A stretch of DNA of 63,860 bases, counting the filler, from Octopus bimaculoides (taxonomy: Eukaryota), in NCBI RefSeq assembly GCF_001194135.2. It is 5 parts of 5 records of this genome, joined end to end, with 100 filler letters (N's around TTAATTAATTAA, not from the genome) between each part and the next. Parts side by side here need not be neighbours in the genome. Positions count along the whole stretch, not along the records: positions 1 to 22,451 come from NC_068988.1; positions 22,552 to 53,145 come from NC_068998.1; positions 53,246 to 57,134 come from NW_026420056.1; positions 57,235 to 60,852 come from NC_069007.1; 1 more part is not named here. One strand, written 5' to 3'. The translations under genes and the position numbers were made by a program. The notes below the pieces were generated by a model. The model did not search any database. It saw only the letters and a program-made list of their open reading frames with translations, and was not told the origin of the DNA. Below are positions 2,948 through 57,383 of the stretch, one piece after another. Within the stretch, counting starts at the first letter, position 1, and each line of letters begins with the position of its first letter.

Positions 2948-3236
2948 CTCTATGTAAATATATTTTGAAGAATTGGAAAATTCTGCCTATTCCTGACTGG
3001 CTTTATATCTTTCCAGCCTTATCATTTAAGGTCTACCTTTTCACTTTTTATTTTTTACATTTTAGTTTTTTTTGTTTTTCATTTTCCATTTTAGGTTTTT
3101 TTGGGTTTTTTCTGTGTTTTCTACATGCTGCCTTCTCAGTTTTTTCGCGTTTCTCCTATTATTCAATATTTTTTAGTTCATTATGTTATATGTGGTTTGT
3201 GCCTGAAGAATATGTATTCCTCAACACATGAAACTA

Positions 3237-3464
3237 TAGGGTTGTCCGGAAAGTTCGCGCCAATTTTTAAAGGAAAGAAAAAGGTCAATAAATACTTGCC
3301 ATTACATTTTAAATTAACCAGCTACGAACCATTTTGTTGCACAATGCGTCTCCAACTTTCCTCTAACTTGAAAATACCCTCTTCCCAGAATTGGGGTGGT
3401 TTCATGACAAATAAGTCGAAAGGTAAGCTACTATAAATCAGCACGAACTTTCCGGACAACCCAA
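3237..3464 (-). mobile_element. Internally deleted mariner element
   Basis: TIRs T(A/T)GGGTTGTCCGGAAAGTTCG(C/T)GC, TA TSD; minus strand encodes transposase C-terminus KPPQFWEEGIFKLEESWRRIVQQNG. Confidence 0.85.
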
Positions 3465-3633
3465 TATTAGTAGTGCTTAAATACATGTATTGTGCCCTTA
3501 AAATAAATATTACACACACACACACATATATATATATACTGGAGTAAGCACATAAATGTGAAACAAGGTGGAAAAAAGAGTACTAAAATACCAGAGGTAG
3601 AGTAATATGCTTTATTTAAAAGCAGCAGAAATA

Positions 3634-3689
3634 TAACAAAAGCTGTTACTCAGAGTTTCAAGTTCTTGTTCGTCGGACAGGTTTTGTTA
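3634..3689 (-). ncRNA. Type I hammerhead ribozyme motif, variant core (CCGACGA)
   Basis: Minus strand TAACAAAA-C-CTGT CCGACGA ACAAGAACTT GAAA CTC-T-GAG TA ACAG-C-TTTTGTTA: stem I 4+8 bp, palindromic stem III, GUA site. Confidence 0.65.
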
Positions 3690-3894
3690 AAATAGAACAG
3701 AAATAACGATATAATCAAAACTAGTTAAAGGATACACTTTTAAAAATGGATTTGTTTCATTGGTCCTTTCTATTAGCGGTCTTAAACATGCAATGAACAG
3801 AATAAACAAAATAAATGAATTCAATATAAATTCATCCAATTATAAAATCAAAGAAAACCTTAAATCGAAGAATGGATTCAAAATACATATTGTA

Positions 3895-5935
3895 AATAAT
3901 TATATACAAAATATAATTCAATTAATACATTAAAAGTAAAATTTAAAATTTTCACGCTGCATTACATATTTTACAACAGTATATACCCATCCTAGACCAT
4001 CTATAATATACATATATACACCAAAATACACAGATGCATGCACACACTACATACATATACAGGCATATATATGTAAGACATAAATATACGCACAATTACA
4101 CATATACACATGTACATATATGCACGCAACCATGCCCGCATACGAAAATCTCTTGGTGTATACATATAGAAGTTATAACAGACAAGATAGATGGGAAGTA
4201 TATCTTAAACGTAGGGAGCGGGAAAGAAAAGGGAAAAGGAAGGATCCTAAGTGTAACAGCTAGTGAAGGAAAGAGGTAAGTAGGGGGGTGAGAAGGGGAA
4301 CGCATCGTTAAAGGACTCTATCAAAGTAATGAATAGGGAAAGAAAGGATACTTCACATATAAAGAAAGAAAAAAAAAGAAAGAAAAATAGGTGGCAGAAT
4401 ATGTGTAACACAAAATAATATTACATATATATGTGTATACAAAAGTGTTTATTAGCATAAATACACATATAAGATCACATATATAAATATATGGAAATAT
4501 GCACATAAATACACATCCACATAAATATAAGTGCATACATGCATACATATACATTCATGTATGTATGTGCACAAGTATAAACATACACGCTTGCCTACAC
4601 ATATACATAGACGCACACATATGAATACATATGCAAGCTAACAATACAGACATCCACATAAAAACATATCTAGGTCCTGATGTATATATACAAACAACTT
4701 ATGAAAACAATTGCTGAGTGTATAATAATAAAATCGAATAAAAGAGATATTAAAAAGAACACCATATATTGAACTATCTATAAAATTTAACGATTAAATG
4801 GGTTTGTAAAGTACAATAAAATGAAATAAAAATAACAATAAAAAAAACAAAATCTTAAACATGAAAATAATATATACATATAACAGTCGAAGGTTTTCTT
4901 AAGAAATATGTCGAAATATATACAATATCTTTGCAATGCGAAATAAACCATGCATTACAAGACACAAATTCAACAATGTGATTGAAAACTAGTACAAGAT
5001 TAAAAAAATATATGTACTATCCATATGGTAAACTGTTAGCTGACATTTTAAATTTTGTTGCGTGTCTGCAGCAATTCAAGAGTTCACATCTTTGATTCAA
5101 AGCACTATTGTCATGGAAAAAAATATAGAATTTTTCCAAAAGACATAAATCACATTTGATGGGTCTTTTATGCACACTTGGGTCAAAAAGGGTGAGGACT
5201 CTCTTTTCGATGTACCGATGGGGGCATATGATGGGGATGAGTTATGGTGCTCATAGGAGCTTATATTTTGCACAATCTAAAGCTAGAATTCTCGTTTATA
5301 GACAAAGGATTATATAGGGATGACAGCTTTATATAGTCACCCTTACAGACACGGTGCACATAAAAGACCCATCAAATGTGATTTATGTCATTTGGAAAAA
5401 TTCTATATTTTATTCCAGGACAATAGCGCTTTGAATCAAAGATGCAAACTCTTGAATTCCTGCAGACATGCAACAAAATTTAAAATGTCAGCTAACAATA
5501 TACCCAGGTACCTGGGTCAAAGAGTGAGGATTCTCTTTTCAATGTACTGATGGGGGCATACGATGGGGATGAGTTATGTGTGCTCATAGGAGCTTATATT
5601 TTGCACACTCTAACGCTACATTTAAGATATACTTCCCATCTATCTTGTCTGTTATAACTTCTATATGTATACACCAAGAGATTTTCGTATGCGGGCATGG
5701 TTGCGTGCATATATGTACATGTGTATATGCGAATTTTTGCATATATTTATGTCCTACATATATATGCCTGTATATGTATGTAATGTGTGCATGCATCTGT
5801 GTATTTTGATGTATATATGTATATTATAGATGGTCTAGGATGGGTATATACTGTTGTAAAATATTCATGTAATGCAGCGTGAAATTTTAAATTTTAATTT
5901 TAATGTATTAATTGAATTATATTTTGTATAAAGAA
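3895..5935. mobile_element. Rearranged Penelope-like retroelement remnant
   Basis: Plus-strand RT core TWVKKGEDSLFDVPMGAYDGDEL...IGAYILH...GLYRDD at 5176-5333 (one frameshift), second partial copy 5511-5610; inverted duplications about 3895-4214/5606-5935 and 5034-5175/5354-5497. Confidence 0.75.
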
Positions 5936-5949
5936 GTGTATAAAGAATT

Positions 5950-6150
5950 ATATTTTGTATGAAGAAGCTATATAAAGAAGTGTTGGTTACTGAAAGTGAA
6001 TGGCACCTGTGGAAGAGGGAAACCCAGGAAGACATGGGATGAAGATGAGAGGACTGATCTCAGGATGTTGGGACTCACTGGACCAAGATGTTTAGCAATA
6101 TGAGGTTCTAGAGAAGACTCGCCCACATCAGTGAACCTAAGCTCCAGAAG
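5950..6150 (+). mobile_element. RTE-clade LINE 3' fragment
   Basis: Translates to GTCGRGKPRKTWDEDERTDLRMLGLT, like the RTE ORF C-terminus; a related reverse copy occurs at about 48700-49085. Confidence 0.6.
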
Positions 6151-7668
6151 CATCGTGTCTCACCCACACATAACAACAAAACTTTCAAACACCCTACCCC
6201 AAAAAAAAAAANNNNNNNNNNNNNNNNNNNNNNNNNNNNNNNTCACCCCCCCCTTCCCTTCCCAAATTGTCTCTTCTCTTCCTCACATTTCCTCTTCATA
6301 CATTATCATTATCTCCCACTCCCCAATCTAGTCCTTGCTTCCATGCTCATCCCCTCCCCTTCTATACACCCAGATTCTCACCAATCACTGCATTCCTCTA
6401 CCCCCACTTCCGACTCATGACTCCTTGGCAATATCCTGCCAGCACCTGCCAGTGCCAGGGTAGACTTCCTTGCAAGTATACCCTGGCACTTGCCGCCATC
6501 CCTCTCCTGCTCTTGCTGTCTCCTTTCTCTCTCTCTTTTATCTCTTGCTCTCCCCTCTGGCTGAGCAATCATGCATCTCCTCTACAGCAACAAACTTGTT
6601 TCTGCTCTCATTCTAGATCACACTCTCGCCTTCCTTCCCTTGCTCTTACCTCTGGCTAGATAACTATGGATCTCCTTTACAGCAGCACACCTCTTTCTTG
6701 TTAACTCCCACACTCTTCCTAGATAACTGTTTCTGCTCTCATTCTTGTTAACGCTTGCTCTCTTTCTTGCCTTCTATTTCCCTCTTTCTTCCTCTCTCTC
6801 ACTCTCCCTCTCACTGGCAGGGTAACCATGGACCTCCTCTACAGCAAGACATGTTTCTGCCTCACTGTCACACACTAATCTTTCATCATCTGACACATGA
6901 ATCACCTCCTCCAATGTCCCCTCCCCTCTTAAAGACTTTGTCTTGCAAAGTCTCTTGGTAACCCAGCCAGTGCAGGTGCCACTTGAAAAGCACCCAGTCT
7001 ACACTGTAAAGTGGTTGGCATTTAGAAGGGCATCTAGCTGTAAAAACCACACCAAAACTGACCTCACCTGTGCGAGTGCCATGTAAAAAGCACTCCGTCT
7101 ACTCTATGGAGCGGTTGGTGTTAGGAAGGGCATCCAGCTGTGAAAACCATGCCAAAACAGACACAGAAGCATGGCGCAGGTTCCTGCCTGGCCAACTCCT
7201 GTCAAACTGTCCAACCCATGCCAGCATGGAAGGAAGATGTTAAACAATGATGATGATGACATCATTCTGACCATAAAAATCCTGAATGACATGTAATATA
7301 GCTTTGCACTCAGAAAAAAAGCAGTGACATAAAAATCAATAAAAAAGTATAAACATTCAAATAAAAAGACATATTAAACTGGTCGTATTCAGTTCATACA
7401 ATTTTGAATACTACCATGTTTATGCAACAAAAGGTAACAAAAATATTTGCAAATATACATACATTAATATATCATCATTGTCATTATTTAATATCCTTTC
7501 TTACTTAGGCTGTCTGTTTATCTCAGTCAGTTGAATGCCTATCAGTGATTTCTGTCTTTGTCAATTTAACTATCTTTTTCTTTCTCTCTCTCTATCTATC
7601 TGTCTATCTCTTTCATTCTCTCTTCCTCTGTGTGTGTGTGTGTGTGCATAAAAATATATGTATATATA

Positions 7669-8400
7669 CAGGGGTTGGACAAAATAATGGAAACACCTAG
7701 CATCATAGCATCATAATTTTGAAATATCTATAAAACCGTCAAAAGCTTGTTTATTATTGTTTTTTTTTTTATTTATTATTAGTGTTGGTTAATATGTTTT
7801 GCTAAAATTGCTGTTTCTTTTCAGATATCATCAGAAAAGGTAATTAAAATTCATTAAAATGATAGATCTATCAGACTTTCAAAGAGATCGAATTGTTGAT
7901 GCTCGTATGGCAGGCACTAGCATAACGAAAACAGCCAAAATGTTTGGTGTATCAAGAAGTACTGTCTCGAAAGTAATGACAGCCTTTGAGAAAGAGGGAA
8001 AAATCTCCTCGTCGAAACAAAACTCTGGAAGATAACCAAAACTTTCAGATAGAGACCGTCAGACTCTTATATGTGAATTGTTAGAAAGGATCACAAAAGT
8101 ACAGCTCCCAAAATTACTGCAGAGCTTAATGACCACCTCAAGAACCTGGTTTCCACAAAAACTGTTCGCTGGGAGCTGCACAAAGCCAGATTTCACAGGA
8201 GGGCTGCAATCAGAAAGCCACTACTTTCAAAAACAAACACTGCAAAACATTTAGAGTGGAGTAAAAACCTACAGAATTGGTCCCTAAAGGAGTGGAAGAA
8301 TGTTATTTTCACAGACAAGTCATCCGTTACCTTATTTCCGACCACCGGTCAAATATAGGTGTGGAGACAGTCAAAAGAAGCATTTGACTCAGCCTGCCTT
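7669..8400 (+). mobile_element. Tc1-like transposon, 3'-truncated, defective transposase
   Basis: TA|CAGGGGTTGGACAAAATAATGGAAACACC left TIR; from 7859 MIDLSDFQRDRIVDARMAGTSITKTAKMFGVSRSTVSKV...W..VIFTDKS with stops and a frameshift. Confidence 0.85.
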
Positions 8401-8497
8401 CGCTCAATAAACACTCACAACACCCGGTCTGGGAATCGAAACCGCGATCCTATGACCGCGAGTCCGCTGCCCTAACCAATGGGCCATTGCGCCTCCA
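8401..8497 (-). mobile_element. tRNA-head fragment of SINE family A
   Basis: Reverse complement TGGAGGCGCAATGGCCCATTGGTTAGGGCAGCGGACTC...GGTTTCGATTCCCAGACC with A and B boxes. Confidence 0.8.
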
Positions 8498-8511
8498 CAT
8501 ATATATATCTA

Positions 8512-8720
8512 CAAGGGTGGGGCTGAAAAGTTCCTGGTTTAAGGCTATCATGAAAGGCCTGGTTGGACTCCCAAGTACTTTTACAGGGCTTTGAAAAACT
8601 GAAGGGTCACTCCAATAACTGTGTGAATCTGAGAGGGGAATATGTCGAATAAAATCATAATTAACCAATCCTTCTGCATTTTCTTTTACTCAATGCCAGA
8701 ATCTTTTCAGCACCCTTTCA
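8512..8720 (+). mobile_element. Non-autonomous mariner-like element
   Basis: TA|CAAGGGTGGGGCTGAAAAGTTCC and degenerate right TIR CTTTTCAGCACCCT; internal sequence shared with 18346-18480. Confidence 0.6.
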
Positions 8721-9777
8721 TATCTCTATCTTTCTCTCTCTCTCTTTCTGAATTACTTAATCTCTAAGCAAATTTATTATTCACAGCTTAAGTATAGACT
8801 TAGGACTTGGCAACAAACTTCTCACATCAACTCATTTAGTACAACATGCTAACCTGATACACACATTCGACCCAAACCACTTCTTCAAGGTTATCTATTT
8901 TCACACACGCATGTATCTCAAAATAAAAACTTTTTTCATGAAATGTTTTTTATTTACTTTTTGCTTTTTCCTAATTTGTTTAACCCTCATTCTGAAGAAA
9001 CGGTGTCAAAGACCATTTTACCCAATTATAGCAACGAAGGGGAAAAACAGAATATAATGTGCATGCTCATGCATACACACACAATCATACACATATGCAT
9101 GCATTCACACAAACACACATATAGACAAATAGACACACACACATGCATACACATACATACACACAAGCATACACATATGCATGCGCACACACATGCACAT
9201 TTATGCACACACACACACAAAGAATAGTGTCCTCTTGCCATTGAAGAGGAATTAATATCAAAAAGGTTAAATTGCATATCGCTGCAGATATGTCAAATTT
9301 ATCAGAACTGATAGCAGGTTGCTTCACACACACACACACACACATACATACATGCACACAAACAATATATTTTTAAAAAAGGCATTTTTTTTCTTTTTCT
9401 TTTTTTTCATTTTGTAGCTCTAGTGTACAAACATCTCTTAAAATGTTCCCAGACAACGCAAAGATTATGTTTCAAGACATAATAAAGACATTTAAATAAT
9501 CTGAGACTTAACAGATTATTTAGATTAATGTTGTTGTTGTCATCGTCATCCACCCCTAGATCTACCCTAATCAAACAGGACTATGATCAAAGGTTGCAAT
9601 GTACACATCAGTCATTTTTATGGATGTTTTCTATTTTTTTTTTCTTTTTGCAGGCTTGGTTGTGTGGTTAAGAAGTTCAGTTTGCAGCCACATGGTTTTA
9701 GTTTCAATCCCACTGTATGACACCTTAGGCAAGTGGTTGACCAATGCCTTATAAGTAAATTAAGTAGACAGAAACTG

Positions 9778-10015
9778 AGTGGCGAGCTGGTAGAATCGTT
9801 AGCACACTGGGAGAAATGCTTAGCGGTATTTCGTCTGCCGTTACATTCTGAGTTCAAATTCCACCGAGGTCGACTTTGCCTTTCATCCTTTCATGGTCGA
9901 TAAATTAAGTACCAGTTACGCACTGGGGTCGATGTAATCGACTTAATCCCTTTGTCTGTCCTTGTTTGTCCCCTCTATGTTTAGCCCCTTGTGGGCAATT
10001 AAGAAATAAGAAACT
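9778..10015 (+). mobile_element. SINE family D
   Basis: GGCGAGCTGGTAGAATCGTTAGCAC...GAGTTCAAATTCC...GCCTTTCATCCTTT...GATAAATTAAGTACC; recurs at about 36991-37195, 39985-40190, 40330-40535 and 43450-43690(-). Confidence 0.75.
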
Positions 10016-11202
10016 GAGTGGAAGCCCAACACACACACACAAAGGATCTACAGATGTTAGGACCCCCGGAGGGGATGACAGGGGACCCCTGGTGGTTTGC
10101 TGTGCTTGAAAATACACATCAAGCTAAGTAAAAACATGGTTGTCTTTTGACACTGGCATGTCCCCTGCATCCCTCTCCAGCTAAGCATTCCCAACCTTGC
10201 AGGCTCATGGGTGCTGGTGCCATATAAAAAGCATCCATGCCAGTGCCACGTAAACACACTCATGCCAGTGCTGCATAAAAGCACCCACTACATTCTCTAA
10301 AGTGATTGGCATTAGGAAGGGCATCCAGCCATAGAAACCATGCCAAAACAGACATGGAGCCTGAGCAGCTCTTCAGCTGGCCAGCTCCTGCCAGCATGAA
10401 AAATAGACATCAAATGATGATGATGATGATGATAGAGGCAATTATGCAGATAAACAAATTAAATATAACAGCTTTGGTATAAAATACAAAATACATATAT
10501 ATGTATACATGCAAAACGAGAGAAAGCAAAGAGTGGAGGCTTTCAGACAATGGATATAAGTATAAATATATAGATATTTATATTAATAGATCCAACTTAC
10601 ACAGAGTACAAAGGACAGAGAAAATTAAAAGGGAGGAAGTAAGGTGTTATAAATCCAAAAGCTGTTTCTGGGGGCTCAGAGATCCATCATAATGTTGATG
10701 ATTTAGAGCAGAGTTGGCAACAGTTTTTGAACATGTTTTGATAGGGTCAAATGTTATGCTTAGCACCCACTAACTGCTGTATTCAAGCAAGTTCTGCCAC
10801 TAATGAGCAGATGAGGCCACTAGGTTTAATGACCCACAAACTTTTTCCTCAACCTAACAGTAATATGAGATAACCCATTCATCTGTTTTTATTATATTTT
10901 TATGCCATGCCTAAGCTTCCTTTCATCGTTGAGTAATTTTGGATACAACTGGAATTGTGGATTACCAAACAACAGTGAACTTCACTCACTGATGCATCCT
11001 GTGCTAAGATGATGGATTATTCAACTGTCTCACATCATTCTGTCTAGCTAATTTGTTGCACGTTTCACTTTGATATGCCTTGATTCTTTACAGGTCCCCT
11101 GTAATTTAAACTATATATATCATCATCATTATTATTATTATTTAGCATCTGCTTTCCATGCTGGCATGAATTAGACAATTTGACTGGAACTGGTAAGCCA
11201 GA

Positions 11203-11749
11203 GGATCTTTTTTAAAACGGGGGCCACATTTTTCATTAATGTTTTACGTAGTGTTTTTGGTACCGAAAGACTTTCAAACTTCGTATACTTATCTATTTTG
11301 TGTTATAGAACAGAAAAATATTTTTGTATTTGAATTTATTTCATATAAAAAATTGTCTTATTTCGATAATTTCAACCAATCACTGACGTCCATTCAGTCG
11401 ATATACATTAAGTGCCGACTACATAAACAAATGATTCTTCGTTTTATTTGCTTTTTTCATTTTAAATTTGCTTTAACCCTAACCCTACGGTTAGGGTTAG
11501 GGTTAGGATTAATTGTTTCAGAATCATTTGTTTATGTAGTCGGCACTTAATGTATATCGGCTGAATGGACGTCAGTGATTGGTTGAAATTACAGAAATAC
11601 GACAACTTTAACATGGAATAATTTATGGATTTCTTTTTTTTTAAAGAAGACTAAGAGAAAAAGATGTTTTATATGACCCATTCTACCAGTGTTCCAAGTT
11701 TCAAAGTGTTTCGTTAATGAAAAATGTGGCCCCCGTTTTAAAAAAGATC
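11203..11749. mobile_element. TIR MITE with GGATC termini and internal TAACCC/TTAGGG arrays
   Basis: TIRs GGATCTTTTTTAAAACGGGG(G)CCACATTTTTCATTAA; perfect 8-bp TSD AAGCCAGA; inserted into a SINE. Confidence 0.85.
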
Positions 11750-17821: not shown

Positions 17822-18345
17822 TAAAGGCACAACGGCAGAGAGAAAGACGGGCAACTGAATCAGATGAAACCAGGGCAAAGCGACTGAAGCAGATGCCTGA
17901 ATATGCACGGAGGCATAGACATGATTCTGTTTCCACTGCACACGACCAACTGGTTAGGGCATCTTGAGAGGAGAATATTCTACTTCAAAATAATGGTGTC
18001 AGATCACAAATTGTTGATTCAACACTAAAGAGATCTTTTCTTTGCGATCATGTGGAAGTAGTGGAGTTGACAACCTATCTAAGACTTCTTACAGAAGGTC
18101 ATTCTGATGAGAAAGAGTTTGCTAATTACCTTCTTGATGGAGGAAATGGTAACATTTCTATTGAACAAAGCCTAAGTGAATTCAAAATCAAACTACCCAG
18201 TGACCCTTGCCTTGAAAAGAGTACCCTTTTAGGTTTATATGATTTTGTATATGCTGACCTCAATAATAACTTCACAAACCCTGTGTGGCTTGCAAATAGA
18301 ACCATCGTTACTCCAACAAATGAAGCAGCACAATTTGTGAATGAC
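17822..18345 (+). mobile_element. Helitron Rep/Hel fragment (Pif1-like helicase portion)
   Basis: 18052 onward VELTTYLRL...EFANYLLDGGNG...IKLP...DFVYADL...WLANRTIVTPTNEAAQFVN resembles the Helitron helicase 'L..NMR...FA..LL.IG.G...RAIL.P.N' segment. Confidence 0.7.
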
Positions 18346-19123
18346 AGCTGCTACAGAGGCCTGGTTGGAGGGCCAGCCTTCAGAGATCTTTCTACAGGGC
18401 TTAGAAAAACTGAGAGACTGCTGCAATAAGTGTGTGAATCTGAGAGGGGAATATATTGAATAAAATCATAAGTATTTTCTTTTACCCAAAGCCATGAACT
18501 TTGCAGCATCTCCTCACATGTGTGTATGTATATATATATATTTGATGATTGCCACTTCTTTACAGAAGGATGCCATCTCTTCAAATAGTAAAGCTGACAT
18601 GAGATGTCATGACTAACCCACCCCAGATGAATGCTGCCACAAGTACAAGTAACCCTAACCCTAAGTACAATACCTCCAGCTAAGCATCAATAGGTAAACA
18701 GAAAATCCACCAACAGGACATATAAAAAAAATGGGTATCTATACTTCAAGGGAGATAATTTTTCAGTCCCAAAGAAGATTTATTTGAATGAACAAATGAG
18801 TGAACGAACGAATGAATGAATGAATGAATGAATGAATGAATGAATATGCTCACTCTTATGGTTGAAGGTCGACTTCCAGAACCAATCATCACTCTTCATC
18901 ATGTTGCAGTCTCGTGTTACTGGGGTCTTCCCCATCCAGTCCTTGATATCACTACTCTAGTTTTATCACTGTTGCCCAAAACCAGTTTTCTGTCTGCCCA
19001 GGACAGGATGCAAGAACACGTTTTGGGCCCTGACAACATGGCCAAAATATTGTCACTTACACCATATGTCCATCGTCACCAACTTTTGTTCTGCTCCCAT
19101 CTTATATCTCCCATTTAACTCTG

Positions 19124-23824: not shown

Positions 23825-24268
23825 ATACATGTATGTATTTTTACATGCACATATACTATTTCAAGAGAAGTGGTGACAGTGACTTAGTAGTTTCAGTCTG
23901 ATGAAAGCTAGGAGGCTGAAACGCCAAAGCCACTTTCCTCACTCTACACACCATTTAGGCGCATAAAGTTCATATGATCCTCTGGTATTAGATTTTAATC
24001 AAACATTCCAGGCACTCTAGAAAGAATTTTAATTAATTCAATATAGGTAATGTGCCCTCAGACATGAAATCAGTTTGGTAAGTGTCATGCATGAAACTCT
24101 TGACCCTTGAATCACTTTTGTAACTTTCTGTCTATTAAAATTATAAGCATATACTCAGGTAGTGAATGTAATTTCTCCATTTTTTTTTACATATAAACCT
24201 ATATAAATATGCATACATACCAACATATCTCACCCAAATATATGAAACAACAGATGAATAATGTGTTA

Positions 24269-24588
24269 ATTCACTACAGCTGTTTCCAATGAATTTTTAA
24301 TTGATTAATACAGACATTACATCATTAGAAAAAACTGTTTCCATCAGGTGAATACATGAACCACAACATTCAAAATGCAATGGGATGTGCATCTTCATGA
24401 TTCTATAACCCTTGCTAATCATTGAATTATGAGTAAGGGTTCAGAATCATGAAGATGCACATCTCATTGGATTTTGAATATTTTTGAATGTTGTGGCTCA
24501 TATATTCACCTGATGAAAACAGTTTTCTCTAATGATGTAATGTCTCCATTACTCAATTAAAAATTCATTGGAAACAGCTGCAGTGAAT
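24269..24588. repeat. About 320-bp imperfect fold-back
   Basis: Left and right arms of about 150 bp are reverse complements around a short loop near 24418-24430. Confidence 0.9.
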
Positions 24589-24729
24589 GTTATTTATTCA
24601 TTTATTATTCTCCTCTCTTGGAACCTGCCCCTTGTGTAGATCCACAGTTAGTTATTTCAATCATCACAGAGTCTGCCATGATGATTCAAATTACTAATGC
24701 ATAAAATATCTAAGGGTATATTCTTCCCA

Positions 24730-24804
24730 CCTCTGAAGAGATTAAGCTCAGGAATATAATTTTAACACTTATTTTCATTGAGCTTAATTGAAACAGCTGT
24801 AAGG
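24730..24804 (+). ncRNA. Type I hammerhead ribozyme motif
   Basis: CCT CTGAAGA GATTAAGCTCA..28 nt..TGAGCTTAATT GAAA CAGCTG TA AGG: intact core, 11-bp stem II, palindromic stem III, GUA site, short stem I. Confidence 0.75.
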
Positions 24805-25040
24805 GATAATGATTGATTTTTGCTGATAATAAACTCTTATTAACTTCAATATCTCTATTTTCTTATTATTCATTTATATATATATTCATATATTTATAGA
24901 ACTCTGATACATTGGATCTTATACTCCCCACACCAAGTTCACTGTACTCTTTGCAGTTCTATTAATAAAGCATATTACTCTACTTGCAGTATTCGAGTAC
25001 AGTTTTTTCCACCTTGTTTCATATTTATGAGCTTACTCTC

Positions 25041-25071
<31 letters not shown>

Positions 25072-47361: not shown

Positions 47362-47396
<35 letters not shown>

Positions 47397-47598: not shown

Positions 47599-49178
47599 CT
47601 GCAAGATGAAAATAATTGAATACTTCAACAATTAACATCTGTTGACCCCTATACAAATACAAACCACATTGTCTCACATTATTCATATATATCTTGACTC
47701 ATTTCTGGAATGTTTTTGACTATTGTCCCAATAAATCAGTGATACATAAAAGGCACCCATGCCAGTGACATGTAATAGGCACCTCTGCTGGTGACACGTA
47801 AAAGGCATTTGTGCCAGTGATACATAAAAGGCACACACTACACTCTGTGGATTGGTTGACATTAGGAAGGGTATCCAGTCATAGAAACTAAGCCAAAACA
47901 GACTGGAGCCTGCTGTAGCTGACTGGTTTACCAAATCCCATCAAACTGTCTAACCTAAGCCAGCATGGAAAACAAATCCTAAATGATGATGATGAAGATG
48001 ATGAAGATGATGATGATGAAAAACAACAGCTCCTCCTACATCACTGCCCTATTTTGGTGTATTGTAGATATGCATTTTCATTGTCTTTCTTAAGATTTCT
48101 GCTTTTTCAAATTGATTGCATAATTCTCCTATATAAGCCAAACACCAAATACATGCTTCTCTCACCACCCTCACAATTTCTTACTTCTCCAAACTGAGTA
48201 TCAAATACGTAGAATGCAACTATTTTTCGGCAGTTCATCGTTATATGCTTCTATTAACTGTCAATAATTCATTATCAAAATTTAGCCTATATAACTTTTA
48301 CCTCATTTACCCTGATTCCCATTTTAGGAAGGCATGAAACGGTTGCTGCAACACCATTTCTCAAGAAAATAAATAAAAAGAAACCCATAAAACTAATATA
48401 ATTTTGTGTAGTAACTTGCCTGATAAATTACCATCATCATCATCAAAATTTAACGTCCATTTTCCATGCTGGCATGAGTTAGACAGGAACTGGCAAGGCC
48501 AAGGGCTGCATAAAGTTCCATAGTCTGTTTTGGCTTGGTTTCTATGGCTGGATATGCCCTTCCTAACACCAATCACTCCACAAAGTGTTCTGGGTGCTTT
48601 TTACGTGGTACCATCACTGGTGCTTTTTTACATGACACCATCACTAGTGCTTTTCATGTGGCACCAGCACCCACACCAAAGTTTTCTATGTGGCACCCTG
48701 GTTTTAGGATCTCAATTCTGTTGTGGTGGGCAGGTCTTATCAAGTACAGCAAAGTGTCACATATCTCAGTTCTTTTTCATCTCCTTCATAAGGTTCAGCA
48801 TTTTGAGATCAGCCTTCAATATTCATTCCATGTCTCCTTGGGTCTCCCTCTTCCACAACTTCCCTCCACTTTAAGTGATCAGCATTTCTTTATTCAACTG
48901 TCCTCATCCATCCATCTAACATGACCAAACCAGCACAATCTCCTTTCTTGCACACTGCATCTAATTCCTCTTCTTCTCTCTTAATACTCCAATACTCTGT
49001 GGCACATGCACACTGACATTGCACATCCATACTAGCTTTGTTCTTCTCCAGCCTTCGCATGTCTTCCACAGTCAGGGCCTACATCTCAGTTTGGAGTGGA
49101 AATTAAAACAAAAAGAGTTCCCAAAATACCTCCAAAACAAAAAAACAAACAAACAAAAAAAAAGGACAAAATTCGTAC

Positions 49179-49279
49179 CTTCTGATTCGTTTTTGTGAAT
49201 CCAATGTATATCTTTGTTAGTCTTATTGAAATTCATCTCTCTACTGGTAGTAAATGTAAATGGAATCTCCCACTTGTAA
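49179..49279 (-). CDS. M1 aminopeptidase N-like gene, first exon visible in window (YKWEIPFTFTTSREMNFNKTNKDIHWIHKNESE)
   Basis: Acceptor TTTGCTATAG, donor GTACGA, 101 nt, phase 2 to 1; YxWxIPxT motif typical of aminopeptidase N domain III. Confidence 0.9.
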
Positions 49280-49582
49280 CTATAGCAAAGGAAAATAAAT
49301 TTAGAGAGAGTCTGAAAGTGGAATAAATTAGTTTACTTTGAGAAGTCTGAAATTATGGGCAGGATTTTTTCTCAGAGAGAAATATAAGAAATTTTCTTCT
49401 TCATTTGACCAATTTGTTCTACTTTGATTTCACTCTTTGCTGACACGAATCATCATCAGTTCCTTTAGATCCTATTGGTTACTTAAATATTTAGAAAAGG
49501 TTAATTGACACATGCATAAAACATGCTTGTAAACATGATGTATGTAAGTATACATTACATACTTATGTGTTATATTCATACA

Positions 49583-49624
<42 letters not shown>

Positions 49625-50141
49625 TATAAAACACAATTAAGTCACATGATAAATGTTTGTGGGATTTGCTTCCATCATGGAACTGAAGCAAGCTGTTGTA
49701 TAGTGCCTGTGCATAAAGAAATCTGGGTAGATATTCCAACCAAGCGATATAAGAAGTCAGCCAATGAAATCACTTCCCACCCTTCTCTGCATAAATCAAT
49801 TGTTACACACAGACAAAACGATCTGTTAATTCATCACTGAACATTCACTGCAAGTAATTACTTGGCAGTAAAAATTTGTAATTTTACCATCTGATGAGTT
49901 CATTACAAGGTAATTACATAGTGAGCCAATACATCATTCATAAATCTATCATTATGAATGACCTGTAGGGACACCGTATTTCGTTATGCAATCGTAATAC
50001 ACTACAAAGTATAGTAAACGTTTTTATAAGTCAATACTGTGTTCTACTGTTTTAGCAGTACTTTTTACACCATCTAGTATATCCAACAACATTACACTGC
50101 TATATTTAGTGGCTATTTAAACAATGTGTTTATGGATGGTT

Positions 50142-50211
50142 AATGGGTTGGATGGGTGCTGATGAAGGAAGGAAAACTCCTGAAATATCGTATATATACT
50201 CAAGACCCATT
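50142..50211 (+). ncRNA. Type I hammerhead ribozyme motif with extended stem I
   Basis: AATGGGT-TGGA-TGGGTG CTGATGA AGGA-AGGAAAAC-TCCT GAAA TAT-CGT-ATA TA TACTCA-AG-ACCCATT: intact core, all three stems, AUA site. Confidence 0.75.
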
Positions 50212-51550
50212 TTTCATCTTTAATCTCATTTTTGTTTTAGATCAGGCGTCTCGAATATGAAATGTCATAACAAGATCAGTACTGGCTATAATTCCTATAC
50301 AAAAATCTGCAGAGATAGCCTTTACAAGCGATCTATCATTATGATTTTATCCACAGAGTAAATACATCACTAAATATTAATTACTGTTTTTATTTGTGGA
50401 GTAAATATGTAATGGGTACATGTGTATGGTAAGAAGCTTGCTTCTCAACCACATAGTTTTGGGTTCAGTCCCACTGTGTGACACCTTGGGCAAGTGTTTC
50501 TACTATAGCATTGGGCCAATCAAAGCCTTGTGAGTGGATTTGGTGGACGGAAACTGGAAGAAGCCCGTCGTATATATGTATATATATGTGTGTATGTGTG
50601 TGTATATGTTTTTCTGTCTTCTGTTTGTCCCCTCAACATCGCTTGACAACCAATGCTGGTGTGTTTACGTCTCCGTAAATTAGCGGTTCGGCAAAAGGGA
50701 CCGATAGAATAAGTACTAGGCTTACAAAGCATAAGTCCTGGGGTCGATTTGCTCGTCTAAAGGCGGTGCTCCAGCATGGCCGCAGTCAAATGACTGAAAC
50801 AAGTAAAAGAGTAAAAGAGAGAGTATGTATGCATGCCTGCGTGTACTATGTGTGTATTTAAACGTATGCATATCTATAAATATACGAATACGTACTATAT
50901 TCACAAATTGCCATCCTTTGGTTTTTAACTTTTTAAAGATTTATTTTTATTTACTTTTTAGTTAATTTATGTTTTGTTAGGAACAATAAATTTCCGATAT
51001 CCATCGACATTTCAAGCAAGAAAATGTTTCTATTAATATATCTTCTATGACCAATGTTCTACTTCTGGTTAATTCTATATAAGAAAGCTGTGTTATCAAC
51101 TAATGATTTTCTATCCAGCTTTGTTTTCTTATGCAATGTAAAGTGTTGCTATGGCTCCTTGTAGATACAAGGTCAGTCGACTATAAAATATAGTATAGAC
51201 AAAAGACGAATGCACACAAAAAATATCAATTTACAAACTAACATCAATTTCATAAAAATTTATAAAAATAACTCTTCAATCAAATGGTTAGCTTAACAAA
51301 TTAATTATTGCTTCAAATATACAAAATGTAATTATTACACTCTAACACTTCGAAGGAGAATTCAACATACCGTACCTTATCACCATAGATCNNNNNNNNN
51401 NNNNNNNNNNNNNNNNNNNNNNNNNNNNNNNNNNNNNNNNNNNNNNNNNNNNNNNNNNNNNNNNNNNNNNNNNNNNNNNNNNNNNNNNNNNATATATATA
51501 TATATATATATATATGTATGCATATATATGTATATGTATATGCATATAAT

Positions 51551-51814
51551 GAAGTTTGCTTTTATAAGCGTTGAGATGTCTTAGAAAGTTAAAGAAGTGA
51601 TTTTAAATTCTCAAACGCAGGATAATGCTAATAATATAGCCTGAACAGGATAAGATACCCCTATTTTGCAGAAAAAAGTGTAGGCAGCCAGCTATGAGAC
51701 ATGAACTCACACCTCCGTGATTACTCGTCGCGGTGCTCTTAGACCGATTAAGCTTAACTGCCCCACCACAAGTTTTTCTGCAAATTTAAGATGTATAGAA
51801 ATCTCGCTTTATGA
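51551..51814 (-). mobile_element. Second copy of the tRNA-Thr-like repeat
   Basis: Cloverleaf-like about 51683-51762 on minus strand (loop CGAGTAA); flanks homologous to 45995-46282. Confidence 0.65.
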
Positions 51815-52241
51815 GATGCAATCATATGTTAAATTCAAATTACCCATTAAATGGGTAACATTACAATAGACTGGTGTTTTGTTCACGGGTAATGCTGGCT
51901 CTGCCCATCTAGCCAGTGGGGTAGCATCACTTGAGAGCTAAAATGATATGAGGAAGCACATTGTGACCAGCAGGGACTTTTCTTTTTTCTTTGTGATGTA
52001 ATCTTGGGATTGAAAATGTTTGTGGCTGAAGATAGCTTTAAACCATCTTTTCTATCAATTATATACTCATATAATGATGCAACGACTGTTTGTGTATAAA
52101 GCTTGAAACACGTGTACCGCAGAATCCTTTGTGTTCTGTTTTCATTTTATGTTTTAATATATTCTTTCACCTCGGCCACTATCTGGCATATACAGGTGCT
52201 TACACTTATCAAGTATTACCTCCAAAATTTACAATACCTAT

Positions 52242-52296
<55 letters not shown>

Positions 52297-52559
52297 ACAC
52301 ACGTAAAAGAGATTAATAAATCCAGGCAGATATCAATAATGCACTCAGTGTTAAATGAATTTCGTTAGCTGTATCCATCAATCAGATACCAATAAATACA
52401 AGTAGAATAACCATCCAAGGTAATTCTTCATGCCTGACAAGTAAATCCAAATATTGGTCAGAAGAATTTCATGAAATTCTGAGTTTAAGACACCAAGAAT
52501 AAGTTAGAAAATTACTATTTTTTAATCTCACAACGTGAGATATTCAGCAACAGTACTTT

Positions 52560-52772
52560 GTAGTGAAGATTGTTTGCCAACATAACATGGCAGTCCTGGT
52601 TTAGGACTAATGTTGCTGTAATTTAGCCTCAAGAGACATTGTCTCCAGCTGGCTCTACAACACAGATTGTGTTGTATAGCCAGCTGGAGACGATGTCTCC
52701 TGGGGCTAAATTACAGCAACATTAGTCCTAAGCCAGGACTGCCATGTTATGTTGGCAAACAATCTTTACTAC
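52560..52772. repeat. 213-bp near-perfect palindrome in an aminopeptidase intron or upstream region
   Basis: Arms of about 105 bp with few mismatches; centre TACAACACA-GAT-TGTGTTGTA. Confidence 0.9.
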
Positions 52773-52789
52773 CAAGAATAAGAATGGAG

Positions 52790-53078
52790 AAAATCACATC
52801 TTTAATTGGGTATTACACCATACATTATCGACAATCATTTGTATTGTGCCAGCATATTTAGATACAGAAAAAGGTAGAAAATAACAGCCAAATTGGTATA
52901 TCTGAAAACAGATGCTAACACAATGTTATCAAGGCAATTCAATGTTGTGTTAGCATATATTTTAGAATATATTAATTTGACTGATATTTTATGCATTTTT
53001 CTGTTTCTAAATATGCTTGCACAATAGAAACGTTCATTGATAATATATGGTGTAATCATCAATTAAAGATGTGATTTT
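52790..53078. repeat. MITE-like unit with about 42-bp terminal inverted repeats
   Basis: AAAATCACATCTTTAATTG..TATTACACCATA.ATTATC at both ends; internal hairpin GCTAACACAA...TTGTGTTAGC. Confidence 0.7.
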
Positions 53079-53095
53079 GTCTATTCTTATACTTG

Positions 53096-53145
<50 letters not shown>

Positions 53146-53245
53146 NNNNNNNNNNNNNNNNNNNNNNNNNNNNNNNNNNNNNNNNNNNNTTAATTAATTA
53201 ANNNNNNNNNNNNNNNNNNNNNNNNNNNNNNNNNNNNNNNNNNNN

Positions 53246-53300
<55 letters not shown>

Positions 53301-54833
53301 AAGCTAATGAATAAGGTCTCTACATGGTAGCTAGAAATGTTTCCCTTTCGCCACTACTTGACAACCGGTGTTGGTGTGTCTACGTCCCCGTAAGACTGAC
53401 GGAATAAGCAACAGGCTTACAAAAAGCATTTTAATTAAGTACAGGCGTCGATTCATTCGGCAGGAAATTGTTCAACGCGGTGCTCCAGCATGGTTGCGGT
53501 CTAACGATCGAAACAAGCAAAAGACTAGACATTAAAAGTTAAGACTCCAGGATCACTGCTAATAAAACCGGGTCTAAAACAACACTCACACATACATACA
53601 TACATACATACATACGCCTCAACAAAAACCTGGAAAAATTAGGGTTCTCAAAACCTGAAAGAAAAAGGCTGATTAGAAGACTACAGATTCAAGCCATCAA
53701 TGGAACTGTAAAGATATGTAAAACTTTCCAAAAATTTAGCACATGAATACATATGCATGCATCTAAAACGCATCCATAAAACAAAGATACAAATCTGCGC
53801 ATACACTAACACCAAATANNNNNNNNNNNNNNNNNNNNNNNNNNNNNNNNNNNNNNNNNNNNNNNNNNNNNNNNNNNNNNNNNNNNNNNNNNNNNNNNNN
53901 NNNNNNNNNNNNNNNNNNNNNNNNNNNNNNNNNNNNNNNNNNNNNNNNNNNNNNNNNNNNNNNNNNNNNNNNNNNNNNNNNNNNNNNNNNNNNNNNNNNN
54001 NNNNNNNNNNNNNNNNNNNNNNNNNNNNNNNNNNNNNNNNNNNNNNNNNNNNNNNNNNNNNNNNNNNNNNNNNNNNNNNNNNNNNNNNNNNNNNNNNNNN
54101 NNNNNNNNNNNNNNNNNNNNNNNNNNNNNNNNNNNNNNNNNNNNNNNNNNNNNNNNNNNNNNNNNNNNNNNNNNNNNNNNNNNNNNNNNNNNNNNNNNNN
54201 NNNNNNNNNNNNNNNNNNNNNNNNNNNNNNNNNNNNNNNNNNNNNNNNNNNNNNNNNNNNNNNNNNNNNNNNNNNNNNNNNNNNNNNNNNNNNNNNNNNN
54301 NNNNNNNNNNNNNNNNNNNNNNNNNNNNNNNNNNNNNNNNNNNNNNNNNNNNNNNNNNNNNNNNNNNNNNNNNNNNNNNNNNNNNNNNNNNNNNNNNNNN
54401 NNNNNNNNNNNNNNNNNNNNNNNNNNNNNNNNNNNNNNNNNNNNNNNNNNNNNNNNNNNNNNNNNNNNNNNNNNNNNNNNNNNNNNNNNNNNNNNNNNNN
54501 NNNNNNNNNNNNNNNNNNNNNNNNNNNNNNNNNNNNNNNNNNNNNNNNNNNNNNNNNNNNNNNNNNNNNNNNNNNNNNNNNNNNNNNNNNNNNNNNNNNN
54601 NNNNNNNNNNNNNNNNNNNNNNNNNNNNNNNNNNNNNNNNNNNNNNNNNNNNNNNNNNNNNNNNNNNNNNNNNNNNNNNNNNNNNNNNNNNNNNNNNNNN
54701 NNNNNNNNNNNNNNNNNNNNNNNNNNNNNNNNNNNNNNNNNNNNNNNNNNNNNNNNNNNNNNNNNNNNNNNNNNNNNNNNNNNNNNNNNNNNNNNNNNNN
54801 NNNNNNNNNNNNNNNCACCACCATACACACACG

Positions 54834-54870
<37 letters not shown>

Positions 54871-57307
54871 ATACAAACACACACGCACACATGCATCAAC
54901 CAAACCGTTTAACTCCCGCGTGCTGGGCACGTGCTTGATCGTTCACCCTCACTCGTAGAGTAGGGAGTGCGCGGCGGGTGGGTGCGGGTTGAGGAAGAGG
55001 GTCGTACGAGGGTAGGAGAAGGGGGCTAGGCAGAGATGAGAAGGGGACGCGTGTCTGTCAGTGCGAGTGTGTCTGCGTCTGTAAGCGTGTATGTGTGTCT
55101 GTTGATGTAGATGTGTGTATGTATATGCCTTTATGAGTATACATTTTGTGTGTGTGTATGTGTGTATTTGCATGTTGATGTATGTATGCATGTGTACGTT
55201 TATGCATTTCTTAGCAAAAGGGTGTGTACGTCGTTTTGTGTGTTTGTGAGTTGATGTATGTGTGTCAGGGTGTGTGTGCATATCCGTGTGTTTAACTTTC
55301 TGTCTGTACATACATACATATACACCGCACATACATACATATATATATACGACGAATTTCTGTCTACCAAATCCACTCACAAGGCTTTGGTCATCCCGAG
55401 GCTATAGCAGAAGACACCTGCGCAAGGTGGCACGCAGTGGGACTGAACCCGGAACCATGTGGTTGGGAAGCAAGATTCTTAACACACAACCACGCCTACA
55501 TACTCAAACATACACATAAACGAATGCACACGATACATATGCGTATATTCACACACGTTCTAACGTACATAGTTATACATATAAACACATACATACATAC
55601 ATACACACACGTCTGCAATTACGCATATAGTAGATACCCACATATTTTAATAACTAGNNNNNNNNNNNNNNNNNNNNNNNNNNNNNNNNNNNNNNNNNNN
55701 NNNNNNNNNNNNNNNNNNNNNNNNNNNNNNNNNNNNNNNNNNNNNNNNNNNNNNNNNNNNNNNNNNNNNNNNNNNNNNNNNNNNNNNNNNNNNNNNNNNN
55801 NNNNNNNNNNNNNNNNNNNNNNNNNNNNNNNNNNNNNNNNNNNNNNNNNNNNNNNNNNNNNNNNNNNNNNNNNNNNNNNNNNNNNNNNNNNNNNNNNNNN
55901 NNNNNNNNNNNNNNNNNNNNNNNNNNNNNNNNNNNNNNNNNNNNNNNNNNNNNNNNNNNNNNNNNNNNNNNNNNNNNNNNNNNNNNNNNNNNNNNNNNNN
56001 NNNNNNNNNNNNNNNNNNNNNNNNNNNNNNNNNNNNNNNNNNNNNNNNNNNNNNNNNNNNNNNNNNNNNNNNNNNNNNNNNNNNNNNNNNNNNNNNNNNN
56101 NNNNNNNNNNNNNNNNNNNNNNNNNNNNNNNNNNNNNNNNNNNNNNNNNNNNNNNNNNNNNNNNNNNNNNNNNNNNNNNNNNNNNNNNNNNNNNNNNNNN
56201 NNNNNNNNNNNNNNNNNNNNNNNNNNNNNNNNNNNNNNNNNNNNNNNNNNNNNNNNNNNNNNNNNNNNNNNNNNNNNNNNNNNNNNNNNNNNNNNNNNNN
56301 NNNNNNNNNNNNNNNNNNNNNNNNNNNNNNNNNNNNNNNNNNNNNNNNNNNNNNNNNNNNNNNNNNNNNNNNNNNNNNNNNNNNNNNNNNNNNNNNNNNN
56401 NNNNNNNNNNNNNNNNNNNNNNNNNNNNNNNNNNNNNNNNNNNNNNNNNNNNNNNNNNNNNNNNNNNNNNNNNNNNNNNNNNNNNNNNNNNNNNNNNNNN
56501 NNNNNNNNNNNNNNNNNNNNNNNNNNNNNNNNNNNNNNNNNNNNNNNNNGTTCATATATATATATATATATATATACATAATTATTATATTAGTGTGGTA
56601 CATATACATTGTGCACATTTAAGAGCGTATATCCATGCATTAGTGCTTGAGTACGAGCATATGTGTGTGTATTACAGGGTTTGTGTGTTCCTTTATATGT
56701 AAGCATGGATATGTATGTATATATATATATATATATGTATATATATGTATTTCTGGATGTCGAGGTATATGTGCAAATATGTGTATAAGTCTATATGTAT
56801 TGTGTATGTATGTATGTATGGATGGATGGATGGATGGATGTAAGAAAATCATATGTAACGCAAACGTTATGTTCCGACAGTGAAAAGTCTTGCCTCATGA
56901 CTCGTATTTCGGAATTCTGTAACGTGAAGTTATTTTCCGTAAGCTGAGTTATTGGCTTATAATATATGGAAATCACATGCCGCGTTTCAGAATTCTAGGA
57001 ACGCAACACTTCCGTAACGCAGAAAAAACTCTGTGTGTGTGTGTGTGTGTGGCTGTATGCATATATAGACACATACATATATAAGTATATGCAAGTATAT
57101 ACACATATACACATCTATATATATATATATATATNNNNNNNNNNNNNNNNNNNNNNNNNNNNNNNNNNNNNNNNNNNNTTAATTAATTAANNNNNNNNNN
57201 NNNNNNNNNNNNNNNNNNNNNNNNNNNNNNNNNNACGTCTTCCTCACGTGGTATTGATGTTCACATGGTCAAAATTAACGTGAGTTATTTAGACATTAAC
57301 AAATTTA

Positions 57308-57383
57308 TTAGAATATTTAGCTGAAGATCAGAATAGAGTATTCTTTACTCTTAACCGTGAAACGATCGTACTAAATTAACTAA
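57308..57383 (+). ncRNA. Type I hammerhead ribozyme motif
   Basis: TTAG-AAT-ATTTAG CTGAAGA ..domain II.. GAAA CGATCG TA CTAAAT-TAA-CTAA: 6-bp perfect stem I, palindromic stem III, GUA site; base of stem II mismatched. Confidence 0.7.

What the first reader, a model, noticed from the sequence alone, without database searches (positions are those of the whole stretch)
3199..57383. Window-level: a dispersed set of sequence-unrelated type I hammerhead ribozymes
Seen: four contiguous motifs (3634, 24730, 50142, 57308), one split motif (3199-3476) and two degenerate ones (24269-24588). All follow stem I - CUGANGA (one CCGACGA) - stem II - GAAA - stem III - NUH - stem I'. Their stems share no sequence, yet several have self-complementary stem III segments (ACTC-T-GAGT, ACTA-T-TAGT, ACAGCTGT, ACGATCGT). 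Established: minimal type I hammerheads with palindromic stem III occur in Penelope-like elements and retrozymes and can cleave as dimers. Inference: this genome hosts several families of ribozyme-bearing retroelements, some without nearby ORFs and so possibly non-autonomous or circRNA-forming. I cannot tell whether these families are already described.
Basis: partly seen in the sequence, partly recalled or inferred. Interest (0 to 1): 0.75.

Follow-up and report, generated by a model that had tools for sequence, protein, structure and literature searches.

The report
Penelope hammerhead tails and hitchhiking retrozymes
The scattered hammerhead (self-cutting RNA) motifs are real and mark the tail ends of seven common jumping repeats in what is likely an octopus genome: four are Penelope-type retrotransposons, two are short gene-less units that likely borrow the Penelope enzymes, and one is unassigned; this kind of system is known, and cutting is untested here.

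Summary
The motifs are at the stated places, and one more lies at 52026. A strict scan finds 5 against a mean of 0.027 in 300 shuffles. They are not one system: each is the 3' end of a different high-copy repeat. Copies are 5'-truncated, end in (TA)n and often have an inverted partner, as Penelope-like elements (PLEs) do. Four families (3199, 3634, 24269-24588, 52026) join a Hydra-clade RT/GIY-YIG frame in the same sense (24269-24588 rests on one locus). Their hammerheads match the published Hydra-clade ones. Two families (57308, 574 bp; 50142, about 410 bp) are gene-less head-to-tail units, that is retrozyme-like. The 57308 clade covaries in all three stems. 24730 is unassigned. The 3199 motif is split by a mariner-like insert. 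RNA reads show no pile-up at the cut site. This is a known kind, and earlier notes of this scan found it on other DNA of this genome. The families themselves look undescribed.

The parts
2955..3512 (+). 5'-truncated 3' end of a Hydra-clade PLE (family 3199); hammerhead 3199-3476 with core CTGAAGA at 3203-3209, split in loop III
   Evidence: Uninterrupted copies read GAAACTATTAGTA; a Hydra-type endonuclease end lies about 240 nt upstream, same strand, in 7 of 25 loci
3237..3464 (.). 228-bp mariner-like miniature insert with terminal inverted repeats, flanked by a duplicated TA (3235-3236 and 3465-3466); it splits the hammerhead
   Evidence: Inverted ends; 89-92% identical copies at unrelated loci L326 and L130; 'mariner-like' is inferred from the TA duplication and inverted ends
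3535..5177 (-). 3' part of a Hydra-clade PLE (family 3634): endonuclease C-terminus about 5177-5020, about 1.45-kb 3' UTR, hammerhead 3634-3689 (core CCGACGA 3676-3670, predicted cut between 3647 and 3646), end at (TA)n
   Evidence: Collinear with L057 at 88% over 1665 bp; tblastn to Hydra-type proteins; 348-aa frame in L152
5176..5930 (+). Inverted, rearranged pieces of the same PLE: RT motif fragments (5176-5333, 5509-5618), endonuclease end (5341-5504), 3' UTR (5616-5930)
24246..24374 (-). Inverted arm of family 24500; decayed hammerhead, core CTGATGG at 24347-24341
24443..24643 (+). Main arm of family 24500 (likely a Hydra-clade PLE end); core at 24510-24516, cleavage triplet mutated to GCA
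   Evidence: Family alignment; endonuclease end abuts the family's upstream sequence in L362
24671..24875 (+). 3' end of family 24730; core 24733-24739, predicted cut after 24801; clade unassigned
49953..50065 (-). Inverted tail piece of the 50142 element
50075..50326 (+). Truncated copy of an old gene-less unit of about 410 bp (family 50142); core 50159-50165, predicted cut after 50196
   Evidence: Tail before head in 26 of 30 loci; period 394-415 bp in 10 of 25 loci
51979..52244 (+).
57235..57499 (+). Truncated copy of a young gene-less 574-575-bp head-to-tail unit (family 57308); core 57321-57327, predicted cut after 57370; followed by (TAGA)n

Best explanation
The motifs are minimal type I hammerheads at the 3' ends of seven unrelated repeat families: four are Hydra-clade Penelope-like retrotransposons, two are gene-less head-to-tail units (retrozymes) that are likely copied in trans by Penelope enzymes, and one is unassigned. 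Shown: the families, the ORF links, the unit structure, the insertion footprints and the stem covariation. Inferred mechanism: a PLE RT-endonuclease nicks (TA)n DNA and starts reverse transcription at fixed sites downstream of the hammerhead. It usually stops early and often adds an inverted piece, leaving short hammerhead-bearing stumps. The template would be RNA that is intact across the cut site and, for the gene-less units, longer than one unit. An uncut tandem transcript is the likelier template (about 0.6); a religated circle is the alternative. The hammerheads would cut only as dimers through the palindromic stem III, or with protein help, and most genomic copies are likely dead.
For: ORF links. 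Family 3634: window and L057 are collinear from the endonuclease end to the hammerhead; L152 has a 348-aa frame with 44 relatives of 621-934 aa at 33-48% identity, and sister copies carry the CxCX5C linker. Family 3199: 7 of 25 loci in sense, 4 more inverted. Family 52026: 3 of 20 loci (L141 sense endonuclease, L147 the same inverted, L144 RT with DKT). Family 24500: 1 locus, L362. Hammerhead form. File S2 of PMC8557442 lists the same stems for Hydra-clade elements: CTGT/ACAG with ACTC-N-GAGT, ACTA-T-TAGT, and U flanking stem II. Gene-less units. The 57308 head is preceded by its own tail in 27 of 30 loci (25 of 28 places); contiguous units of 574 bp occur; the longest ATG frame is 67 aa. For 50142 the count is 26 of 30. 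Footprints in the 57308 family. An inverted partner occurs in 13 of 30 loci. Of 60 loci, the 3' end runs into TA-like repeats in 24, into a gap in 19 and into other sequence in 17, clustered about 195 and 300 nt past the cut site. Of 20 readable 5' ends in the sister subfamily, 10 run through the cut site and at most 1 stops there. Selection. 98.1% of cells pair and 5 pairs change on both sides, with 0 of 500 shuffles as high. Stem III is self-complementary in 29 of 30 unselected matches, and the sister subfamily swaps pairs in stems I and II.
Against: No cleavage was tested. No sequence link between the gene-less units and an autonomous partner was found, so 'copied by Penelope enzymes' rests on footprints alone. 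No full-length intact PLE was traced end to end, and no tree was built. Only 4 of 30 endonuclease loci had a strict hammerhead downstream within 1.5 kb (6 with a looser look); gaps, truncation and long UTRs may explain this. Family 24500 rests on one locus and 24730 on none. The covariation control ignores relatedness, and the CGATCG to CAATTG change could arise by CpG decay in one master copy. Family 3634 carries C4 in 88 of the first 100 listed matches (counted by hand), a change reported to lower activity considerably in vitro (PMC3088659).
Confidence: 0.88

Rival explanations
1. The 574-nt unit is an active circular-RNA retrozyme: tandem transcripts are cut by hammerhead dimers, the monomer is ligated to a circle, and the circle is the template that is reverse transcribed.
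For: Permuted, longer-than-unit insertions. 5' ends do not stop at the cut site. Stems are under selection in a gene-less element. The monomer folds at -143 kcal/mol as a circle against -112 +/- 6 for 60 doublet shuffles. Circles are shown for coral, mussel and axolotl retrozymes (PMC7229834).
Against: Uncut tandem transcripts give the same footprints. In three RNA-seq runs (about 6 in 100 of each read) coverage is 3'-biased like the deep contig run X16, lowest on the head, with no read starts or ends at the cut site; the libraries are unstranded and may lose circles. A PLE protein used uncut RNA in vitro (PMC11167929). Only 1 of 9 Xenopus dimers cleaved (bioRxiv 10.64898/2026.07.22.740005).
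Confidence: 0.3
2. All seven families are merely truncated ends of autonomous PLEs, and the tail-before-head arrangement is the ordinary PLE tail or pseudo-LTR.
For: PLE tails can occur at either end of an insertion (PMC8557442). The assembly is gappy around these repeats.
Against: The junction sits at one fixed position in 27 of 30 and 26 of 30 loci. No head-bearing copy leads into an ORF, and units follow one another without an ORF. The sister subfamily has the same read-through.
Confidence: 0.06
3. The motifs are host-adopted ribozymes that process transcripts of neighbouring genes.
For: Reads cover the 57308 unit in RNA-seq.
Against: Each motif sits in a repeat with hundreds of copies. Several window copies are decayed or split. 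No cut ends appear in reads.
Confidence: 0.02
4. The motifs are chance matches in AT-rich DNA.
For: The core is short, and most monomers do not fold better than shuffles (z from +0.7 to -4.0).
Against: 5 hits against 0.027; 214 and 696 genomic matches against 0; covariation; fixed position at element 3' ends.
Confidence: 0.01

Closest known systems
Hydra-clade PLEs and their hammerheads (Craig et al. 2021, PMC8557442; sections 6 and 11, File S1 Hydra sheet and File S2 read), including Hydra-1_Obim from an octopus
   Same: C-terminal GIY-YIG, CxCX5C linker, DKT motif, CxxC and CxH motifs, (TA)n targets, inverted 5'-truncated partners, and a sense hammerhead near the 3' end with a 4-bp palindromic stem III. 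Hydra-2_aMil has the same stems I and III as family 3634; Penelope-1_HM has the same stem III as family 3199.
   Different: None of the window hammerheads is that of Hydra-1_Obim (its core-stem II motif is absent from the window and from the 355 loci then held). Families 3634 and 24500 have 3' UTRs above 1 kb, so 3634 would exceed the usual 3 kb. Family 3634 has a C4 core.
Minimal hammerheads of metazoan PLEs (Cervera and de la Pena 2014, PMC4209133; abstract, results and discussion read)
   Same: Thousands of dispersed single motifs in many sequence families, pairs on opposite strands 100-700 bp apart, an extra nucleotide between A9 and stem II, palindromic stem III, predicted dimer activity.
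   Different: The part of the text read names no cephalopod; its supplements were not read. Stem II here can be long (up to 72 nt) and branched.
Non-LTR retrozymes (Cervera and de la Pena 2020, PMC7229834, passages read; Li et al. 2026, bioRxiv 10.64898/2026.07.22.740005, main text read, supplements closed)
   Same: Non-coding units of a few hundred bases, one type I hammerhead per unit, head-to-tail copies, PLE origin proposed.
   Different: The units here carry the minimal PLE-type hammerhead, not the canonical one with loop contacts. They are almost all dispersed sub-monomers with PLE insertion footprints, not arrays. Circles and cleavage are not shown.
PAc, Poseidon PLE of Anolis (Frangieh et al. 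2024, PMC11167929; main text read)
   Same: Discrete internal reverse-transcription starts downstream of the hammerhead, AT-rich targets, no RNA-seq ends at the cut site.
   Different: Different clade; its hammerhead overlaps the ORF start and needs the protein. The two main 3' ends of 57308 are about 105 nt apart rather than 30-40.

Membership tests
Type I minimal (PLE-type) hammerhead | Core C3-A9 box, GAAA and NUH in order, closed by stem I | tested here: met
   family masters. Family 3634 has C at position 4; window copies 24347 and 24510 carry core or triplet mutations.
Type I minimal (PLE-type) hammerhead | Short palindromic stem III allowing a dimer | tested here: met
   29 of 30 self-complementary at free positions in family 57308; four variants CGATCG, CAATTG, CGTCG, CGGCCG plus CGATTCG in the sister subfamily
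Type I minimal (PLE-type) hammerhead | Compensatory changes in stems | tested here: met
   57308 clade; stem I GCGC/GCGC versus GTGC/GCAC in family 3199. Not counted for the other five families.
Type I minimal (PLE-type) hammerhead | Self-cleavage at NUH | not testable with these tools
   No read pile-up at the site, which is weak evidence either way
Hydra-clade PLE | RT followed by C-terminal GIY-YIG endonuclease, hammerhead downstream on the same strand | tested here: met
   Families 3634, 3199, 52026 and 24500 (one locus)
Hydra-clade PLE | CxCX5C linker, CxxC and CxH motifs, no CCHH | tested here: met
   CNCKDGTSC, CDLC and CRH in family 3634; CNCVTTSTC in family 52026; read by eye
Hydra-clade PLE | DKT and RWK motifs in the N-terminal part | tested here: inconclusive
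   DKT and RWR in L144 (family 52026); this part was not recovered for the other three families
Hydra-clade PLE | Insertion into (TA)n, 5' truncation, inverted partner | tested here: met
Hydra-clade PLE | Placement in the clade by RT tree | not tested
   Assignment rests on motifs compared with the paper's text and supplement
Hydra-clade PLE (family 24730) | Linked RT/endonuclease frame upstream in sense | tested here: inconclusive
   Upstream sequence runs into simple repeats and gaps; Hydra-type RT pieces abut 2 of 20 loci examined but inverted and 3' of the arm
Non-LTR retrozyme (families 57308, 50142) | Non-coding unit of a few hundred bases with one hammerhead | tested here: met
   574-575 bp, longest ATG frame 67 aa; about 410 bp (its ORFs were not scanned separately)
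Non-LTR retrozyme (families 57308, 50142) | Head-to-tail repeats, at least two units with hammerheads | tested here: met
   57308: contiguous repeats in L247 and L262; the second hammerhead is seen only across a 10-N gap in L247. 50142: junctions in 26 of 30 loci, no clean dimer seen.
Non-LTR retrozyme, narrow sense of PMC7229834 | Canonical hammerhead with loop 1-loop 2 contacts | tested here: not met
   The motifs are of the minimal PLE type; the 2026 preprint's wider definition admits minimal models
Non-LTR retrozyme (families 57308, 50142) | Monomeric linear and circular RNA in vivo | tested here: inconclusive

The most novel reading that the evidence does not exclude
The 57308 clade is a young, recently mobile retrozyme whose 574-nt RNA circle is reverse transcribed by a Hydra-clade Penelope enzyme. 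Its insertions (fixed internal starts, (TA)n targets, inversions, longer-than-unit permuted copies) would be direct genomic proof that animal retrozymes hijack PLE machinery through circles. The same genome also holds a PLE family that spread to about 700 or more copies with a weakened C4 core.
Probability: 0.3. Interest if true: 0.5.

Novelty: new member of a known kind. Interest (0 to 1): 0.3.

Why it matters
PLE hammerheads and retrozymes are known, so this mainly adds families. Two details are useful for the open question of what PLE hammerheads do. A gene-less clade keeps all three stems by compensatory change across subfamilies, so the fold matters for copying. Yet its insertions run through the cut site, and a protein-coding family spread widely with a C4 core, so efficient cutting does not look necessary. 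The young 574-bp unit is a compact test substrate for trans-mobilisation by a PLE protein, a link that the 2026 preprint infers from co-occurrence and sequence similarity.

Tried and rejected
Rfam scan of the window: only microsatellite-driven miRNA hits among the 150 rows shown. Pfam gave nothing useful for the Hydra-type fragments or five full-length relatives. Run search with the 57308 unit: no RNA holder listed; this blank is no evidence. The 'goes back 557' joints in RNA reads are not circle junctions: the reference was a permuted copy, and the same joint stands in contig runs. The 573-bp pair L397/L398 is a duplicate across an assembly gap, not a dimer. The Poseidon-type RT piece in L016 lies about 1.1 kb away behind unrelated sequence and a gap and was rejected as a partner. 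Hydra-type pieces in L021, L039, L047, L088 and L383 were rejected as neighbours, since they lie downstream or behind the unit's own tail. No autonomous partner of 57308 or 50142 was found among 30 endonuclease loci, nor a Hydra-type frame in 30 sister-subfamily loci. A shared signal among the seven families was sought by blastn; only simple repeats and a few hits of 35 nt or less appeared. Walking upstream in family 24730 ended in simple repeats and gaps. An excess of T>C changes in RNA reads is partly present in genomic copies too, so editing is not shown. The paper on dimer cleavage of PLE hammerheads (Lunse et al.) is not held; I know it only through a review (PMC6765202, passages).
Full report
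Observation. The window is a pack of five stretches. The motifs lie in stretches 1, 2 and 4, on scaffolds C8, C18 and C27 of a 2.34-Gb genome. The host looks like an octopus; that rests on recalled repeat types and on earlier notes of this scan, not on a test. All named motifs are present, and another lies at 52026. A strict descriptor finds 5 motifs, against a mean of 0.027 and a maximum of 1 in 300 local dinucleotide shuffles. The descriptor was written after seeing the motifs. Rfam shows no hammerhead among the 150 of 217 rows displayed.

Each motif belongs to a repeat. Searches of the own genome returned 1394 (57308), 1357 (50142), 1768 (3634), 711 (24730), 482 (24269-24588), 1429 (52026) and 531 (3199) first-look candidates, of which 40 were scored each time. 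These are not copy numbers. Exact patterns give whole counts of 214 for one 57308 form and 696 for the 3634 form, with 0 in the controls. The best copies are 95-100% identical for 57308, 88-95% for 3634, 90-97% for 52026 and about 80% for 50142, so the families differ in age. They share no sequence beyond simple repeats and a few hits of 35 nt or less. Copies share 3' ends that run into (TA)n, vary at the 5' end and often have an inverted partner.

Four families are PLE ends. In the window the 3634 element runs 1.5 kb upstream on the minus strand into an endonuclease C-terminus, and inverted RT and endonuclease pieces follow at 5176-5930. L057 is collinear over 1665 bp. L152 holds a 348-aa frame with 44 relatives of 621-934 aa. 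The motifs (CxCX5C linker, CxxC, CxH, no CCHH) are those given for the Hydra clade (PMC8557442). For family 3199 a Hydra-type endonuclease end lies about 240 nt upstream in sense in 7 of 25 loci, and inverted in 4 more. For 52026, 3 of 20 loci link it: L141, L147 and L144. For 24269-24588 the non-coding sequence extends more than 1 kb upstream and meets an endonuclease end in one locus, L362, which extends 1 of 30 fetched loci. The window pair is the usual inverted arrangement. Hydra-type endonucleases are abundant here: 15,141 candidates, 150 scored. Only 4 of 30 such loci had a strict hammerhead within 1.5 kb downstream, 6 on a looser look. File S2 of PMC8557442 lists hammerheads of the same build, some with identical stems I and III. 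The published octopus family Hydra-1_Obim has a different hammerhead, absent from the window and the loci then held. Family 24730 stays unassigned.

The split motif. Uninterrupted 3199 copies read GAAACTATTAGTA. In the window a 228-bp element with inverted ends sits between two TA dinucleotides in loop III. It has 89-92% identical copies elsewhere. The motif is therefore a dead insertion target, not a designed split ribozyme.

Two families are gene-less units. With the 5'-most 109 bp of 57308 as query, the head is preceded by the family's own tail in 27 of 30 loci (25 of 28 places), and none leads into an ORF. Contiguous repeats give a period of 574 bp, and the longest ATG frame is 67 aa. For 50142 the tail precedes the head in 26 of 30 loci, counting matches of 35 nt or more; the period is 394-415 bp in 10 of 25 loci. 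A sister subfamily of 57308 (160 pattern matches) shows the same read-through. No autonomous partner was found.

Selection on the fold. Among 28 distinct 57308 hammerheads, 98.1% of cells pair and 5 pairs change on both sides; 0 of 500 shuffles reach this. That control ignores relatedness. Stem III is self-complementary in 29 of 30 unselected matches. The commonest swap, CGATCG to CAATTG, could be CpG decay in one master. The G-C swaps in stems I and II of other subfamilies cannot. Against strong activity, family 3634 has C4 in 88 of the first 100 listed matches (hand count). U4C is reported to lower activity considerably in vitro while allowing viroid infectivity (PMC3088659, passage).

Mechanism. 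Established for PLEs: the RT-endonuclease nicks AT-rich DNA and starts at internal sites; in one PLE, hammerhead cutting needed the protein and was not required for insertion (PMC11167929). Minimal hammerheads cut weakly and as dimers (PMC4209133). Seen here: 57308 3' ends cluster about 195 and 300 nt past the cut site (60 loci, some counted twice: 24 TA-like, 19 gaps, 17 other). In the sister subfamily, 10 of 20 readable 5' ends run through the cut site; 1 maps to it, and that looks like a chance match to an inverted piece. Inferred: the template is intact across the cut site and can exceed one unit, either an uncut tandem transcript or a circle. Three unstranded RNA-seq runs cover the unit with a 3' bias like that of the deep contig run X16, with no ends at the cut site. 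This fits read-through of many copies; such libraries may miss circles.

Novelty. Seven literature searches found the kind described. They also found an octopus Hydra family and 235 Rfam hammerheads in the giant squid (PMC6962438, passage), but no description of these families or of cephalopod retrozymes. Repbase and Dfam could not be searched, and the supplements of PMC4209133, PMC7229834 and the 2026 preprint were not seen, so the families may already be catalogued as repeats. Earlier notes of this scan report the same kinds on other DNA of this genome. Verdict: real, well explained, new members of a known kind; interest 0.3.

Noticed in passing
L024:1467-2026, RNA runs X21-X23: Some reads over the 57308 tail carry runs of T>C changes (8 in 39 letters), which is A>G on the hammerhead strand and looks like A-to-I hyper-editing of inverted copies. 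Genomic copies also show a T>C excess against this reference but no such dense runs in 53 loci.
   Followed up: partly
window 3670-3676 (-) and genome-wide: Family 3634 has C instead of U at core position 4 in 88 of the first 100 of 696 matches; the U4 copies look like CpG decay.
   Followed up: partly
L206, L214, L220, L221, L226, L227, L232: Further hammerhead families not in the window lie near Hydra-type endonuclease fragments.
   Followed up: no
L401, L403-L405, L407, L411, L413: A sister subfamily of the 57308 unit has swapped pairs in stems I and II and a 1-nt loop III; its tail region is covered far more deeply than the rest in contig run X16.
   Followed up: partly
window 24964-25071 (+): A short 3'-terminal stump of family 3634 without the hammerhead, ending in (TA)n.
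   Followed up: no
window 61704-62087 (+): Fragment of a mariner-type transposase (Pfam PF01359, E 5e-9); no link to the insert at 3237-3464 was seen.
   Followed up: partly
window 17968-18429 (+): PIF1-like helicase fragment (Pfam PF05970, E 5e-6), possibly a Helitron remnant (inference).
   Followed up: partly
L016:200-430 (-): Poseidon-type PLE RT fragment, so other PLE clades are present in the genome.
   Followed up: partly
runs X17 (organism B) and X19 (organism C): Contigs of two other coded organisms cover the 57308 unit, one across the tail-head junction; the nature of these runs is not on record.
   Followed up: no
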